64,000 nt of DNA from Parvibaculaceae bacterium (lineage in GTDB: Bacteria > Pseudomonadota > Alphaproteobacteria > Rhizobiales > Aestuariivirgaceae), in contig JBFWVM010000001.1 in NCBI GenBank assembly GCA_050246735.1, forward strand, positions 338,004 through 402,003. Direction: 5' to 3'. Positions 38,964-45,463 of the stretch are shown in pieces (within the stretch, counting starts at the first letter, position 1; each line of letters starts with the position of its first letter). Made by a program: the position numbers and the translations under genes. The notes beneath the pieces are model-generated. The model saw only the letters and a program-made list of their open reading frames with translations, was not told the origin of the DNA and made no database searches.

Positions 38964-39661
38964 CGCGGATGCGGCTTCCGCGCCAGATAATCGGCATAGA
39001 CGCCGTTCGAATATTCCGCCGTCAGGAGATCGAAGCCCGACTGCCCGATGAGGCCTTCCATGATCCAGCCATAGGTCGAGTGCTCGTCGCGCAGATGGCG
39101 GACTACGGCGGCACGGTCGTAGCCGGTGTTCTCCAGCATCCAGGCGATCCAGGCCTCGGCCGTCTGCGGCAGCTCGGCCGAGCGGCAGGAGAAGACGACG
39201 TCGCGAATGAAAAGGGTGCCGCCGGGCTTCAGCGCGCTCGCCATGCGGTCGAGCGCCACGCCTTTCCACTGGTCGGGCAGGTGATGCAGCGCGAATTTCG
39301 TGGTGATGAGATCGAGGCCCGCATCGGGAAGCGCAAAAGTGAGAAAGCCCGCCTGCTGCGGGATGACATTGGCGAGCCCCAGCGCCCGGGCGCGGCGTCG
39401 GGTGGCGGCCAGCATGGGCGCTGAGACGTCGACCGCGTGGACGGCGCGGCAGAGCTTCGCTGCTTCGCAGGCGAGACGGCCGGTGCCGCAGCCGATGTCG
39501 GCCAGCCTGTCCGAGGCCGCGAGCCCGAGCCTGGCGAGAAGCGCTGCGTCCTCGCCCGTGCCGTCATTCTGGCGCTCGTCATAGGTAGCCACTTCGCGGC
39601 CGTCGGCGAAATCGGTGCCGACCTGCGTCAGGTCGTCATAGTACCAGTCGGCTCTCTTCAT
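38960..39661 (-). CDS. Class I SAM-dependent methyltransferase
   Basis: DIGCGTG, VDVSAPML, ALHHL, LKPGG. Confidence 0.92.
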   Translation of the reverse strand: MKRADWYYDDLTQVGTDFADGREVATYDERQNDGTGEDAALLARLGLAASDRLADIGCGTGRLACEAAKLCRAVHAVDVSAPMLAATRRRARALGLANVIPQQAGFLTFALPDAGLDLITTKFALHHLPDQWKGVALDRMASALKPGGTLFIRDVVFSCRSAELPQTAEAWIAWMLENTGYDRAAVVRHLRDEHSTYGWIMEGLIGQSGFDLLTAEYSNGVYADYLARKPHPR

Positions 39662-39847
39662 GAGCGGATGGTTGCAAACCGGCCGTCCGGACGCCAGAGC
39701 GGAGCTCGAGCGGATACCATGCGCGGGGCGCATGCCGACACAGGTCACGTCCTTCCGCGGGCGGGGCGAGGGCGAGTTGCGGGCGCTGCGTGCACTTTGG
39801 TGCGGGACCCACTATATTGGCGTCCGGATTTGTGTGGAGCGATGGCC

Positions 39848-40444
39848 ATGACGCCGTTTGATCTTGCCGTGTCGATCGCGCTCGGGGTCGGGCTTGCGGC
39901 GGCCACCGGCTTCCGGATCTTCCTGCCGCTGCTCGTGACCAGCATCGCCACCTATGGCGGCTATGTTCCGGTGAGCGAGGGCTTCGCCTGGATCGGCACG
40001 CCGGGCGCGGTCATCACGCTGGGCGTGGCGGCGCTGGCCGAGGTGCTGGCCTATTATATCCCGGGCGTCGACAACCTGCTCGACACGATCGCGACGCCGG
40101 CCGCACTCGTCGCCGGCACGCTGGTCTCGGCCGCGGTCATGGCCGACCTGCCGCCGCTCGTCAAATGGGCCGCCGCCATCATCGCGGGCGGCGGTGCCGC
40201 CGGCATCACCCAGGGCGTCACCGCCATGATCCGGGCCAATTCGACGGTGTTCACCGGCGGCCTCGGCAATCCCGTCATCGCCACGGGCGAACTCGGCGCG
40301 GCGACCCTCGTGTCGCTGCTCGCGCTCGCGGTGCCCTTCGTCGCCATCGGCCTCGTCGTCCTGTTCTGCTGGTTCGCGGTGAGGACGATTAGGCGGCTGC
40401 TGAGGCGAGGTTCTCCTAACGCCCGCCCTACAGAAGCACAATGA
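39848..40444 (+). CDS. DUF4126 family membrane protein
   Basis: GLAAATGFRIFLPLL, YYIPGVDNLLD, GNPV; alternative start at 39842. Confidence 0.88.
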   Translation: MTPFDLAVSIALGVGLAAATGFRIFLPLLVTSIATYGGYVPVSEGFAWIGTPGAVITLGVAALAEVLAYYIPGVDNLLDTIATPAALVAGTLVSAAVMADLPPLVKWAAAIIAGGGAAGITQGVTAMIRANSTVFTGGLGNPVIATGELGAATLVSLLALAVPFVAIGLVVLFCWFAVRTIRRLLRRGSPNARPTEAQ

Positions 40445-40584
40445 CGAGGAAACTTACCGAGCAGGAGTGGGCAATGCTTGCCCAGCTTGAAGAGCTGCCC
40501 GACGAACAGATTGATACTGTAGATATTCCAGAAGCGCCTAAGGAGCGCTGGCGTTTTGCCTGCCGTGGCAACAAGCGAGATTGA
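40441..40584 (+). pseudogene. Truncated BrnA-like antitoxin N-terminus (47 aa)
   Basis: LAQLEELPDEQIDTVDIPE...W...RG resembles BrnA N-termini; C-terminal RHH part missing. Confidence 0.5.
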
Positions 40585-40602
40585 GATTCGGCGCCGTCAT
40601 AG

Positions 40603-40732
40603 ATATCCACAAGCCTATCCACAAGTTTTTAAGAGGACGCATTCCATAAGTCTATGTTTTGCAACGTATTTTTTATATGTTCTTGATTTGTTTTGACAGG
40701 TGGTATAAGTAATTGTTTACTTTTAGTTTAAC
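40603..40732 (+). promoter_or_regulatory. dnaG upstream region: tandem DnaA-like boxes, AT-rich tract, extended -10, CtrA-like site
   Basis: ATATCCACA 40603 and CTATCCACA 40615; TGGTATAAG 40701; TTAC-N7-TTAAC 40717-40732. Confidence 0.5.
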
Positions 40733-40785
40733 TGAGTCGCTTTCACGGAGGCCTTCGGCTTCGAATCGACGTTTGGAGCCAACGA

Positions 40786-42690
40786 ATGAAATTTTCACCC
40801 ACATTTCTAGACGAGATTCGCGCTCGTGTGTCTGCGTCTTCTGTTGTGGGACGCCGTGTGCAGTGGGACCGTCGTAAATCGAATCTTGGTAGAGGCGATT
40901 TCTGGGCTTGCTGTCCCTTCCACAATGAAAAGACGGCCTCCTTCCATGTCGATGACAGGAAGGGGCGCTATCATTGTTTTGGTTGCAAGGCTTCTGGTGA
41001 CATCTTCACCTTCCTTACAGAAAAGGAAGGTCTGCCTTTTCCTGAGGCGGTCGAACGTTTGGCGCAAGAAGCTGGCTTGCAGATGCCAGTTGCGTCTCCT
41101 CAAGAAGTGGAACGAGAGAAACGTCGAACGACATTGTATGATGTGATAGAGTTCGCTACCCAATTCTATGAATCAAAACTTCGCTCGCCTGAAGGTTCCT
41201 CTGCACTAAATTATCTGCGGCAGCGCGGCATTACGGATTCGACGCTGCAAAAATTTCGAATGGGCTACGCACCTCCCAGCCGTACCGGTCTTAGTTCGTT
41301 TTTAAAAAGCAGAGGTATCAGCAGTGAGCAGATGGCTGCTGCTGGTCTGTTAGTGACGGGCGATGATATACCTGAACCTTATGATCGCTTCAGAGACAGG
41401 ATCATATTTCCTATCGATGACGTGAGAGGGCGTATTATAGCGTTTGGTGGGCGTGCGATGTCCAAGGACGCGCTAGCAAAGTATCTGAATTCTCCAGAGA
41501 CTGAATTGTTCGACAAAGGAAATGTTCTCTTTAATCTTTCACGAGCTCGCCCAACAGCTTTCGAGCAAAGTAAAATTATACTCGTTGAAGGGTACATGGA
41601 TGTTGTTGCGACGTTTCAGAGTGGGATTGAAAACGTTGTGGCCGCGATGGGCACTGCGCTTACTGAGAATCATCTGAGGCAACTATGGCGAATTGCCCCA
41701 GATCCAGTGATGTGTTTTGACGGGGACAAGGCAGGCGCGCAAGCGGCTAGTCGGTCATTGGATCGTGCAATTCCGATGCTCACCAGCGGTCACTCCCTTA
41801 GATTTGCTTTTATGCCGAAGGACAAGGACCCGGCTGATCTGATGCTCGAGGATCGCAAGGAGGAGTTTCTTGCACGCTTGGATAAAGCAATGACTGCGCA
41901 GGCGTATCTTTGGTCTAGAGAAACAGACGGTGCTAAGATTGATACGCCTGAGCAAAAAGCTGGGCTTGAAGCGCACATCAACGAGGTTGTTTCAAAGATC
42001 GCAGACGAAAATGTACGCAAATACTATTCCATGAAAATGCGCATTAGTTTGGCTGATTTCTTTTGGCAGCATGACAGAACTAGAAGAGCAAAGTCACCAC
42101 GTGGAATACTGGTGTTGCCTGACGAAGGTGTGGTTGAGACAGAAAGAAAAATTCTGGGCCTGGCAGTTGAATTTCCTCATGTCGTTTTTACTGATATTGA
42201 ACGATTTCAGATGTGGGAATTTCGACTAGCTGCTCATGCGGCATTCCAACAGGAACTCGTCCGCCTCCTAGTGGAGGAGGATGTTAGAACGGTGGCATCA
42301 ATCTATGATTCCATAAGAGCTGACTTCTATCGGGTACTTGAGCAGGTTCATGGCCGGGAGAATCCCGAACGGGGGCTTCCTCGAGGACACAATCTGTATG
42401 CTCGGTTCCCATCTGCCAGATTCCATCCAAATGACGAATTTGTCCTCAGGTATTTTACCTTACTGTTTAGGCATTTGGAGCTTGAACAAATGGTCCGAGA
42501 GCGTGATGAACTTGTTGAGCGTTTTGCGAAAGAACCCTCAATTGAGGTGGAAACAAAATTACTTGAAATAATCCGAAATATCGAAGAAACCCGAGGACGG
42601 TTCACAGCTCTTGAGCGAGAGTTGGTCGAGGAGGCAATCGCAATTAGAGAGGCCTATCAATTCAGCGACGGTACGAAGATAGCTGCCTAG
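40786..42690 (+). CDS. dnaG: DNA primase, full length, atypical composition
   Basis: CCPFH...HCFGC Zn finger; EGYMDV; FDGDKAG; KDPAD. Confidence 0.96.
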   Translation: MKFSPTFLDEIRARVSASSVVGRRVQWDRRKSNLGRGDFWACCPFHNEKTASFHVDDRKGRYHCFGCKASGDIFTFLTEKEGLPFPEAVERLAQEAGLQMPVASPQEVEREKRRTTLYDVIEFATQFYESKLRSPEGSSALNYLRQRGITDSTLQKFRMGYAPPSRTGLSSFLKSRGISSEQMAAAGLLVTGDDIPEPYDRFRDRIIFPIDDVRGRIIAFGGRAMSKDALAKYLNSPETELFDKGNVLFNLSRARPTAFEQSKIILVEGYMDVVATFQSGIENVVAAMGTALTENHLRQLWRIAPDPVMCFDGDKAGAQAASRSLDRAIPMLTSGHSLRFAFMPKDKDPADLMLEDRKEEFLARLDKAMTAQAYLWSRETDGAKIDTPEQKAGLEAHINEVVSKIADENVRKYYSMKMRISLADFFWQHDRTRRAKSPRGILVLPDEGVVETERKILGLAVEFPHVVFTDIERFQMWEFRLAAHAAFQQELVRLLVEEDVRTVASIYDSIRADFYRVLEQVHGRENPERGLPRGHNLYARFPSARFHPNDEFVLRYFTLLFRHLELEQMVRERDELVERFAKEPSIEVETKLLEIIRNIEETRGRFTALERELVEEAIAIREAYQFSDGTKIAA

Positions 42691-42755
42691 GAAGATAGGC
42701 ATATCTGTGGGTTCAATACGTTTGGGACTCGGAAGTCGAGATATCTGGTTTACCC

Positions 42756-43259
42756 GAGCAGGAGCGCCGCGAGCGGCTTCTGCTCCTGGCGATTGTCAAC
42801 CACCCCGAGCTTCTGCATGATTTCCTGGACGATTATGCCGCAGCGGAGTTCACTTCCCGCGAGCTTGACTCGCTCAAGCGGCAAATCATAGATATGGCCG
42901 CCTTGGCGGAAGGTCTTGACGGATCGGCCGTCAAGGACCACTTGAGTGATCAAGGATTTGGGCCTCTTCTGGCCCGGCTCGACAGCCAGGCGGCACGTCT
43001 GAACGAATGGTTCCTGAACCCCGGTGCTGCGTCTGCGGACGCCCGGACAGCGCTTCGTCAGATGTTCGCCCTGCATAGGAAAAGCGTTACTCTGGACCGG
43101 GAGCTTCAAGCTGCCGAGGCGCAGTTCGCCGCCGATCCGACGGAGGAAAAGCTCAGCGTGCTCAATCAGATACGCGAAGAGCTTGCATCTCACGCCGGCA
43201 CGGAAGCCCATGTCGAGGGCTTCGGCGAGGCCTCGGGGCGCGACGTGACCGCGCTCTGA
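42756..43259 (+). pseudogene. Second DnaG C-terminal region (Rhizobiales-type), no catalytic core
   Basis: RRERLLLLAIVNHPELL...RQMFALHRK..LDRELQAAE...TEAHVEGFGEASGR; frame open 42699-43259; only ATG at 42894. Confidence 0.75.
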
Positions 43260-43309
43260 CGGTAGCGGATCGGAATGGGGCGCATGGACCACCGCGAGCG
43301 GGCATGCGC

Positions 43310-43328
43310 ATGGTTAGGAACAGGTTAA
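43310..43328 (-). promoter_or_regulatory. CtrA-like site upstream of rpoD
   Basis: Minus strand TTAA-CCTGTTC-CTAACCAT versus consensus TTAA-N7-TTAAC. Confidence 0.55.
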
Positions 43329-43393
43329 GGGGCCGGCGGCTAGAACCGCGAGACGGCCCCCGAATCAGTTGAGACGAGAAGGATAGGCGACGC

Positions 43394-45463
<2,070 letters not shown>

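What the first reader, a model, noticed from the sequence alone, without database searches (positions are those of the whole stretch)
42699..43259. Orphan DnaG C-terminal frame is still open: stand-alone helicase-binding module or rpoD promoter carrier
Seen: no stop for about 186 codons. Composition is intermediate (33/60 and 34/60 GC spot counts) with many A/T third positions. There is no good start upstream except CTG at 42705; ATG 42894 lacks an SD. Established: the DnaG C-terminal domain binds DnaB, and E. coli rpoD promoters lie inside dnaG. Inference: it is retained either as a separately made CTD that adapts or tunes the foreign primase-helicase contact, or only because it carries rpoD promoters.
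Basis: inference. Interest (0 to 1): 0.7.

Follow-up and report, generated by a model that had tools for sequence, protein, structure and literature searches.

The report
Leftover primase tail carrying rpoD promoter
The open frame is the last 167 codons of this bacterium's own primase gene, left behind when a foreign primase gene replaced the rest; it most likely survives as the promoter and long leader of the neighbouring sigma-factor gene rpoD, not as a separate protein.

Summary
Frame 42699-43259 is open for 186 codons. From 42756 on it is the native DnaG C-terminal domain, 83-93% identical to the last ~167 residues of full-length DnaG in ten same-genus genomes. A low-GC block (40408-42755) carrying a complete dnaG, the only one in the genome, has replaced the rest of the native gene. 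Independent per-run assemblies from three landfill samples span both junctions.

No evidence was found for a separately made C-terminal domain. There is no ATG/GTG/TTG before 42894, no ribosome-binding site, and fusion to the foreign dnaG is blocked by two stop codons. The low dN/dS is equally explained by a recent event.

The promoter reading is supported:
- An invariant CTTGAC-N18-(A/C)TAGAT (42864-42893) is conserved across the family, although CTTGAC encodes under 1% of Leu-Asp pairs in this genome.
- Synonymous sites are about twice as conserved in the native dnaG 3' end as in the rest of the gene.
- RNA contigs of relatives in eight metatranscriptomes begin at 42920-42978 and run into rpoD, with none upstream.

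Best reading: a relic of in-situ gene displacement, kept as the rpoD promoter and leader. In passing: the incoming dnaG is itself a mosaic, with a genus-type zinc-ribbon domain.

The parts
39437..40444 (+). Native upstream gene (335-aa ORF), syntenic in relatives. Its last ~12 codons are rewritten by the left junction.
   Evidence: blastn synteny runs to about 40407 in seven relatives. C-terminal alignment...RRLLRRGSPNARPTEAQ* here against ...RRLLRRAPKAETQGTG* in G002. Not scanned against Pfam.
40408..42755 (+). Foreign low-GC block of 2348 nt, replacing about 1731 nt of native DNA (the native spacer plus the first ~490 codons of native dnaG).
   Evidence: GC 0.43-0.54 against 0.62-0.73 in the flanks. 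There is no homology to relatives except inside the dnaG core. Logan contigs of three runs span both junctions with 0 differences and the same depth as the flanks. The left junction is only defined to 40407-40445.
40441..40584 (+). Small 47-aa ORF at the left edge of the foreign block; function untested.
   Evidence: Translation. The Pfam call failed on coordinates and was not repeated.
40786..42690 (+). Complete dnaG (634 aa), the only primase core in the genome. It is a mosaic: aa 1-~125 are native-genus type with AT-shifted codons, and aa ~136-634 belong to a distant 'donor' clade with its own unrelated C-terminal domain.
   Evidence: TIGR01391 at 427 bits. Single copy. Best full-length relatives are 62% and 57% identical, in chromosomal carA-yqeY-osmC-dnaG-rpoD contexts. 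Windowed identity and two ML trees show the mosaic. GC3 is 0.45.
42699..43259 (+).
42756..43259 (+). Native dnaG 3' relic: 167 codons plus stop, covering the whole helicase-binding domain.
   Evidence: 83-93% aa identity to relatives' DnaG C-termini. About 92% nt identity, continuous into rpoD. AlphaFold model and fold search. Pfam PF08278 at 21.6 bits, below the cut-off.
42780..42794 (+). Cluster of 5 substitutions unique to this genome. Rare codons TTA and CTA, kept in the other genus members, have both become CTG.
   Evidence: Clustering P = 0.012. TTA is 0.1% and CTA 0.4% of Leu codons.
42864..42893 (+). Promoter-like element CTTGAC-N18-ATAGAT, the inferred rpoD P1.
   Evidence: Both hexamers are nucleotide-invariant in 9 family genomes whose C-terminal domains are down to ~53% identical. 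CTTGAC encodes only 0.8% of Leu-Asp pairs in this genome. RNA contigs of relatives begin 27-37 nt downstream.
42915..42920 (+). Second invariant CTTGAC, a possible second -35 element; no convincing -10.
42900..43393 (+). Inferred rpoD 5' leader of about 470-490 nt, including a ~100-nt block (42990-43090) that is almost invariant within the genus even at third codon positions.
   Evidence: RNA contigs in 8 metatranscriptome runs begin at 42920-42978 and continue through the dnaG stop and spacer into rpoD. Third-position invariance. Synonymous invariance 58/79 against 133/414, Fisher p = 1e-11. No Rfam family.
43314..43329 (+). TTAG-N7-TTAAG, a CtrA-box-like motif in the dnaG-rpoD spacer.
   Evidence: TTA(A/G)-N7-TTAA(C/G) is conserved in 8 of the 9 family genomes and is TTTA-N7-TTAAC in G011. 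Identifying it as a CtrA box is from recalled knowledge and was not tested.
43394..45463 (+). Native rpoD (689 aa).
   Evidence: ORF. 90-93% nt identity to relatives. GC3 0.92.

Best explanation
The frame is a relic, not a gene.

In a recent ancestor of this landfill bacterium (a genus that includes Taklimakanibacter lacteus), a 2.35-kb low-GC DNA segment carrying a complete dnaG replaced the native spacer and the first ~490 codons of native dnaG in situ. The right-hand crossover fell at 42755/42756. This left the last 167 codons of native dnaG between the new primase gene and rpoD.

This tail is most likely not translated into a working protein. It persists intact for two reasons. First, the event is recent. 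Second, the DNA contains the main rpoD promoter (CTTGAC-N18-ATAGAT at 42864-42893, with transcription starting near 42900-42920) and a conserved ~480-nt rpoD leader. In the intact relatives this leader is written over the primase coding sequence.

Shown: the replacement, the identity of the relic, the sequence conservation, and the RNA 5' boundary in relatives.

Inferred: that the promoter fires in this genome, that the relic is untranslated, and that selection for rpoD expression limited where the crossover could fall.
For: Replacement:
- GC step.
- Synteny break at 40407 and 42756 in seven relatives.
- Single dnaG and a single native dnaB.
- Both junctions lie inside error-free contigs of three separately assembled runs, at flank depth.
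- The core groups with a distant clade, UFboot 96-100.

Relic identity.

Not a gene:
- No canonical start before 42894 and no ribosome-binding site.
- The foreign dnaG is in another frame, and TAG 42696-42698 blocks any -1 fusion.
- Five substitutions unique to this genome removed two rare codons that the other genus members keep.

Cis-element:
- Family-wide invariant -35 and -10 hexamers.
- CTTGAC is 0.8% of Leu-Asp codings.
- Synonymous invariance is 73% in the last ~100 codons against 32% elsewhere in native dnaG, p = 1e-11.
- Low GC3 of this segment is shared by all relatives.
- RNA contigs from 8 metatranscriptome runs start at 42920, 42923, 42927, 42930, 42930, 42937, 42957 and 42978 and continue into rpoD. 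There is none on 42756-42919, although that stretch is ~90% conserved, and almost none on upstream native dnaG.
Against: - All RNA evidence comes from relatives (88-97% identical) in soil and sediment metatranscriptomes, assembled as Logan contigs. There is none from this organism and no true TSS mapping.
- A processing site would give the same 5' boundary.
- The -10 hexamer is weak: 4 of 6 to the rhizobial CTATAT consensus, which I recalled rather than tested.
- The spacer also holds a conserved CtrA-box-like motif, so an intergenic promoter might suffice for rpoD.
- The lineage-specific dN/dS of about 0.16 (12 synonymous, 6 non-synonymous) is what continued protein-level selection would also give.
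- Read-through transcripts from the foreign dnaG probably cover the frame, because no terminator follows it. Low-level translation from CTG 42705 or ATG 42894 therefore cannot be excluded.
- This is one event in one metagenome-assembled genome, so 'retained because of' is untestable here.
Confidence: 0.7

Rival explanations
1. The native C-terminal domain is made as a stand-alone protein. Translation would start at CTG 42705, by re-initiation after the foreign dnaG stop, or at ATG 42894 to give a 121-aa truncation. The protein would bind the native DnaB helicase and adapt or tune its contact with the foreign primase.
For: - The frame is intact and encodes the complete domain fold.
- Lineage-specific dN/dS is about 0.16.
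- The foreign C-terminal domain is only ~11-12% identical to the native one, while DnaB is native and single-copy, so a compatibility problem is conceivable.
- AGGA lies 12 nt before CTG 42705, and no terminator separates it from dnaG.
Against: - There is no ATG/GTG/TTG for the whole domain and no ribosome-binding site at ATG 42894.
- ATG 42894 is an internal Met in all relatives and lies upstream of the inferred TSS.
- A free helicase-binding domain would be expected to compete with the primase for DnaB (established for E. coli p16; recalled, not tested).
- The low dN/dS is explained if the relic has been neutral for under ~30% of the terminal branch.
- Rare codons conserved in the other genus members were lost only here.
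- G000 DnaB carries 12 unique residue changes against 3-5 in the five relatives compared, but only 4 lie in the N-terminal domain/linker (3, 3, 3, 0, 0 in the relatives), so they are not concentrated in the primase-binding part.
Confidence: 0.08
2. The relic is pure neutral junk. It has no function of any kind in this genome, rpoD is driven from the spacer promoter alone, and the fragment is intact only because too little time has passed.
For: - Un-ameliorated foreign GC and identical sequence in three samples point to a recent event.
- The frame stays open in 76-87% of simulations at 1-2% neutral change.
- A conserved CtrA-box-like motif in the spacer could mark an independent promoter.
- The ratio of singleton substitutions in the relic to those in rpoD is higher here than in pooled relatives (11:9 against 28:75, p = 0.019).
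Against: - The nucleotide-level conservation, the CTTGAC codon anomaly and the RNA 5' boundary show that this DNA has a non-coding role in the intact relatives. Nothing suggests that role is lost here.
- None of the substitutions unique to this genome hits the invariant hexamers or the 42990-43090 block.
- The singleton excess is matched by G006 and G008, which have intact dnaG.
Confidence: 0.17
3. The structure is an assembly or binning chimera. The low-GC dnaG would belong to another organism and was joined to this contig in error.
For: The genome is a MAG from a complex landfill metagenome with 3.5% estimated contamination. Related species co-occur in the samples.
Against: - Contigs assembled separately from three runs cover 40061/40177-42889 with no differences and the same depth as the flanks.
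- The junctions are not in sequence shared between organisms.
- The genome has no other dnaG.
Confidence: 0.02

Closest known systems
Internal rpoD promoters of the E. coli rpsU-dnaG-rpoD (macromolecular synthesis) operon, including the heat-shock promoter inside the dnaG coding region (recalled knowledge)
   Same: The promoter for rpoD lies inside the 3' part of the primase coding sequence, several hundred nt upstream of the rpoD start, so the primase 3' end serves as both coding sequence and rpoD control region.
   Different: This is an alphaproteobacterial family with a rhizobial-type CTTGAC -35 element, no rpsU linkage was examined, and the leader is about 480 nt. Here the coding function has been lost and only the regulatory function can remain. 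No TSS has been mapped experimentally in this lineage.
Xenologous (orthologous) gene displacement in situ, as described for mosaic operons (Omelchenko et al. 2003, recalled)
   Same: A foreign ortholog replaces the resident gene at the same locus with flanking synteny preserved. It shows a compositional and a phylogenetic signature.
   Different: - The displaced gene is the single essential replicative primase.
- Displacement is incomplete and leaves an entire native domain-coding segment.
- The incoming gene is itself a mosaic with a recipient-genus-type zinc-ribbon domain.
DnaG C-terminal helicase-binding domain (E. coli p16; PDB 1T3W, 6CBS; Pfam PF08278)
   Same: The position at the C-terminus of DnaG in relatives is the same, and so is the predicted all-helical fold. 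The best PDB fold matches are DnaG C-terminal domains and DnaB N-terminal domains.
   Different: Sequence similarity to characterised domains is below the Pfam threshold and undetectable against PDB sequences. Here it is detached from any primase core and lacks translation signals.

Membership tests
DnaG C-terminal helicase-binding domain | Homologous to the C-terminal region of full-length bacterial DnaG | tested here: met
   83-93% identity to the last ~167 aa of 653-675-aa DnaG frames in 10 same-genus genomes, and 53-64% in other genera of the family.
DnaG C-terminal helicase-binding domain | Reaches the Pfam PF08278 gathering score | tested here: not met
   21.6 bits against a cut-off of 29.1, E = 3e-4. 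No hit against PDB sequences with a profile. This domain is known to be poorly conserved.
DnaG C-terminal helicase-binding domain | Helical bundle plus helical hairpin fold shared with the DnaB N-terminal domain | tested here: met
   AlphaFold model with pLDDT 84 and six helices. Top Foldseek PDB hits are 6cbs, 6cbt and 6cbr (E. coli DnaG C-terminal domain, prob 0.99-1.0, TM 0.46-0.54), then 4im9, 5z51 and DnaB N-terminal domains. E-values are weak, at about 0.1.
DnaG C-terminal helicase-binding domain | Binds DnaB | not testable with these tools
   Needs two-hybrid or pull-down experiments.
Independent protein-coding gene | Canonical start codon with a ribosome-binding site that gives the whole domain | tested here: not met
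   No ATG/GTG/TTG between 42699 and 42894, and ATG 42894 has no Shine-Dalgarno sequence. Only CTG 42705 exists, with AGGA 12 nt upstream.
Independent protein-coding gene | Purifying selection since it became independent | tested here: inconclusive
   Changes unique to this genome are 12 synonymous and 6 non-synonymous (ratio about 0.16), the same as in sisters (6:3 and 6:2). This is compatible with selection or with neutrality over less than ~30% of the branch.
Sigma-70-type promoter for rpoD inside dnaG | -35 and -10 hexamers at correct spacing, conserved beyond coding needs | tested here: met
   CTTGAC-N18-(A/C)TAGAT is invariant in 9 family genomes. CTTGAC is 0.8% of Leu-Asp codings. The generic E. 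coli-consensus scan did not report it.
Sigma-70-type promoter for rpoD inside dnaG | Transcripts start just downstream and continue into rpoD | tested here: inconclusive
   RNA contigs of relatives in 8 metatranscriptome runs begin at 42920-42978 and run into rpoD, with none upstream. These are assembled contigs, not primary 5' ends, and they are not from this organism.
In-situ xenologous gene displacement | Flanking synteny kept, the resident copy absent, and the insert foreign by composition and phylogeny | tested here: met
   Junctions confirmed in three independent assemblies.

The most novel reading that the evidence does not exclude
The primase works as a split system. The foreign enzyme, whose own C-terminal domain is unrelated to the host's, depends on or is modulated by a separately translated native helicase-binding domain. 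That domain would be made from a non-canonical start (CTG 42705, or re-initiation after the dnaG stop) and would still fit the native DnaB. This would be a natural case of an essential replisome contact supplied in trans after gene displacement.
Probability: 0.06. Interest if true: 0.8.

Novelty: new member of a known kind. Interest (0 to 1): 0.45.

Why it matters
The locus gives a clean natural example of how an essential, single-copy replication gene can be displaced by a distant ortholog. It also shows how regulatory DNA embedded in the old gene can limit how much of that gene is removed. The relic in effect marks out the rpoD control region of this alphaproteobacterial family: a promoter inside dnaG and a ~480-nt conserved leader that nobody has mapped. 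This yields a directly testable TSS and promoter prediction in the cultured relative Taklimakanibacter lacteus. It also shows that a foreign helicase-binding domain only ~11% identical to the native one can apparently serve a native DnaB. That bears on how specific the primase-helicase contact really is.

Tried and rejected
I did not attempt it by other means and used pairwise Nei-Gojobori values and lineage-unique counts instead.
- Sequence link to solved DnaG C-terminal domains: none at profile level.
- Donor search: the best full-length protein relative among 5.8 billion proteins is only 62% identical. There was no similar DNA in plasmids beyond conserved dnaG core pieces, and phage primases are at most 45% identical. 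The donor therefore remains unknown, and a mobile-element origin is unsupported.
- Literature search for alphaproteobacterial rpoD promoters inside dnaG: nothing relevant among 7 papers.
- Known RNA family in the leader: none. Folding of the invariant block and of the junction region is not better than shuffles, with z of -1.5 and -1.3.
- Co-adaptation of DnaB: 12 unique residue changes against 3-5 in the five relatives compared, roughly in line with the longer G000 branch and not concentrated in the N-terminal domain.
- Excess substitutions in the relic relative to rpoD: nominal p = 0.019, but two intact relatives show the same ratio.
- Fusion of the two frames by read-through or frameshift: rejected from the sequence. 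The frames differ, and TAG 42688 and TAG 42696 block it.
- RNA from the organism itself: no RNA run holds it. Only three DNA runs do.

Full report
**1. What is there**

The window belongs to a 5.6-Mb, 49-contig genome. The genome was assembled from a landfill metagenome, and three runs of one study hold 98-99% of the sampled words. Its genus includes Taklimakanibacter lacteus, and its family includes Aestuariivirga.

The region is about 65-70% GC, except for a block at roughly 40400-42750 that is 43-54% GC. This block contains a complete 634-aa dnaG at 40786-42690, scoring 427 bits to TIGR01391 with zinc-ribbon, catalytic-core and TOPRIM domains. It is the only primase core in the genome.

Immediately after it, in another frame, lies the frame of the finding. 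42699-43259 gives 186 codons and then TGA. rpoD follows at 43394-45463.

**2. The frame is the native dnaG 3' end**

Searching 30 relatives with the 186-aa translation shows residues ~16-186 matching the C-terminal ~167 residues of 653-675-aa open frames. Identity is 83-93% in ten same-genus genomes and 47-64% in other genera.

blastn against 10-kb regions of seven relatives gives the architecture:
- The upstream gene is syntenic to about 40407.
- There is no homology over 40408-42755, except weak matches inside the dnaG core.
- Continuous 90-93% identity then runs from 42756 through rpoD.

The native part therefore begins exactly at GAG 42756 (EQERRER...). 42699-42755 is the foreign 3' tail. 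About 1731 nt of native DNA were replaced by 2348 nt.

An AlphaFold model of the 167 native residues has pLDDT 84 and six helices. Its best fold matches in the PDB are E. coli DnaG C-terminal domains (6cbs, 6cbt, 6cbr; prob 0.99-1.0, TM 0.46-0.54). The V. cholerae and M. tuberculosis domains and DnaB N-terminal domains follow. At sequence level, the Pfam score is below threshold and PDB sequences give nothing.

**3. The replacement is real**

Logan contigs assembled separately from the three landfill runs cover 40061-42889 or 40177-42889. They show no differences, and their depth (9.1, 15.5 and 10.8) matches the flanks. Related species co-occur in the samples and account for the variant unitigs in the native part.

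The junctions do not lie in sequence shared between organisms. An assembly chimera is therefore very unlikely.

**4. Is the relic a gene?**

The evidence against a gene is as follows:
- No ATG, GTG or TTG lies in frame before ATG 42894.
- That ATG has no ribosome-binding site and is an internal Met conserved in all relatives.
- The foreign dnaG is in a different frame. TAG 42696-42698 in the relic's frame lies downstream of the dnaG stop at 42688-42690, so a -1 frameshift cannot fuse them.
- Only CTG 42705 remains as a candidate start, with AGGA 12 nt upstream.

Openness carries little weight. The antisense frame is open for 182 codons, and 1-5% neutral substitution leaves the frame open in 87-50% of simulations.

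dN/dS:
- Pairwise values are 0.09-0.20.
- Changes unique to this genome, relative to its two sisters and an outgroup, are 12 synonymous and 6 non-synonymous (about 0.16). The sisters with intact dnaG give 6:3 and 6:2.
- Full neutrality over the whole branch is rejected (P = 2e-4). Neutrality over up to ~30% of the branch is not.

Two observations lean towards relaxed coding constraint:
- Five of the 18 unique changes cluster in 15 nt next to the junction (P = 0.012). They convert TTA and CTA into CTG. These two codons make up 0.1% and 0.4% of Leu codons here, and the other genus members retain them (TTA in all nine, CTA in eight of nine).
- The ratio of singleton changes in the relic to those in rpoD is 11:9, against 28:75 pooled in relatives (p = 0.019). 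Two intact relatives have similar ratios, so this is not decisive.

**5. The relic carries nucleotide-level function for rpoD**

(a) Composition. The 'intermediate' composition is native. The same 504 nt in every intact relative have GC3 of 0.62-0.68, against about 0.8 for the whole gene.

(b) Synonymous conservation. Among the nine intact same-genus dnaG genes, codons at invariant, degenerate amino-acid positions are fully invariant in 58 of 79 cases in the last ~100 codons. Elsewhere the figure is 133 of 414 (Fisher p = 1e-11). A ~100-nt stretch (42990-43090) is almost invariant, including third positions.

(c) Promoter-like hexamers. Across nine family genomes, with C-terminal domains down to ~53% identical, two hexamers stay invariant while neighbouring synonymous sites vary. 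These are CTTGAC (42864-42869) and, 18 nt later, (A/C)TAGAT (42888-42893). A second CTTGAC at 42915-42920 is also invariant. In 1205 high-GC3 ORFs of this genome, Leu-Asp is written CTTGAC in only 0.8% of 3984 cases. CTTGAC-N17-CTATAT is the rhizobial sigma-70 consensus as I recall it; that was not tested here.

(d) RNA. No RNA run holds this organism. Soil, sediment and rhizosphere metatranscriptomes do contain transcripts of relatives, 88-97% identical.
- In eight runs, the assembled RNA contigs start at window positions 42920, 42923, 42927, 42930, 42930, 42937, 42957 and 42978.
- They continue through the dnaG stop and the spacer into rpoD.
- No RNA lies on 42756-42919, which is ~90% conserved and includes a genus-invariant block. 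Almost none lies on the upstream 1.6 kb of native dnaG when laid on a relative.

Together these place a transcript 5' end near 42900-42920, about 7-27 nt after the -10 hexamer. That gives rpoD a leader of ~470-490 nt. ATG 42894 lies upstream of this start.

Caveats: these are contigs, not primary 5' ends. A processing site would look the same. Two contigs carry 27-38 unrelated nt at their 5' ends.

The spacer also has a conserved TTA(A/G)-N7-TTAA(C/G) motif at 43314-43329. It resembles a CtrA box (recalled) and could mark a second promoter. No Rfam family matches the leader, and the invariant block does not fold better than shuffles.

**6. The incoming gene and its source**

Its closest full-length relatives among 5.8 billion proteins are 62% and 57% identical. 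They sit in ordinary chromosomal contexts (carA, yqeY, osmC, dnaG, rpoD) on contigs of 53-55% GC. Plasmid and phage collections gave no closer donor.

The gene is a mosaic:
- Residues 1-~125 (zinc ribbon and linker) are 91-95% identical to the native genus. The 6-7 differences per 100 residues fall within the genus's own diversity. This part groups inside the genus clade (UFboot 85).
- Its codons are nonetheless AT-shifted: GC3 0.50 against 0.75-0.86, 47-51 synonymous codon differences per 100, and 79% nt identity.
- Residues ~136-634 group with the distant clade (UFboot 96-100). The C-terminal domain is 11-12% identical to the native one.

DnaB is single-copy and native, 93-94% identical to its sisters. 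Its changes are not concentrated in the N-terminal, primase-binding part.

**7. Verdict**

The stand-alone-domain one has no positive evidence.

My estimates:
- Relic of in-situ displacement retained as rpoD promoter and leader: about 0.7.
- Purely neutral relic: about 0.17.
- Functional stand-alone domain: about 0.08.
- Artefact: about 0.02.

The kind of event (xenologous displacement in situ) and the kind of regulation (an rpoD promoter inside dnaG, as in E. coli) are both known. This is a new and instructive member of that kind.

Noticed in passing
40786-41160 (dnaG codons 1-~125): The 'foreign' dnaG is a mosaic. Its zinc-ribbon part is native-genus type at protein level (91-95% identical, inside the genus clade), yet it is written in AT-shifted codons (GC3 0.50 against 0.75-0.86 in natives). 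The rest of the gene belongs to a distant clade. This suggests an older exchange of the 5' end between the two lineages, followed by long residence in a low-GC genome.
   Followed up: yes
40590-40785: Upstream of the foreign dnaG lie two TATCCACAAG repeats resembling DnaA boxes, then a very AT-rich spacer. An earlier first-reader note (e1-5240285) also flags this. I only saw the sequence.
   Followed up: no
40441-40584: A 47-aa ORF sits at the left edge of the foreign block (MTRKLTEQEW...DIPEAPKERWRFACRGNKRD). Its tail reminded me of DUF4415/BrnA-type antitoxin proteins. The Pfam call failed on coordinates and was not repeated.
   Followed up: no
43314-43329: TTAG-N7-TTAAG lies in the dnaG-rpoD spacer. 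The TTA(A/G)-N7-TTAA(C/G) pattern is conserved in 8 of the 9 family genomes compared (G011 has TTTA-N7-TTAAC), and several have a perfect TTAA-N7-TTAAC, which looks like a CtrA box about 70 nt before rpoD.
   Followed up: partly
42780-42794: Five substitutions unique to this genome fall within 15 nt beside the junction. They remove the rare codons TTA and CTA that the other genus members keep (TTA in all nine, CTA in eight). This could reflect relaxed translation-level constraint or a single multi-nucleotide repair event.
   Followed up: partly
43257-43312 and relatives' spacers: The first ~55 nt after the dnaG stop vary in length and sequence among relatives. G008 has a ~100-nt repeated insert, and RNA and DNA contigs of relatives skip 54-70 nt here. 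The second half of the spacer is conserved.
   Followed up: no
L013 (G005:C36:47713-51075): The dnaG of same-genus genome G005 (65% complete) is split over three reading frames. This is probably an indel-rich assembly rather than a pseudogene.
   Followed up: partly
42920-42923 (RNA contigs of runs X34, X35): Two metatranscriptome contigs carry 27-38 nt of unrelated sequence upstream of the common 5' boundary. These could be assembly chimeras at a transcript end or a different upstream context in those organisms.
   Followed up: no
42750-43292, minus strand: A 180-aa antisense ORF spans the whole relic. It shows that long open frames arise by chance in this composition.
   Followed up: yes
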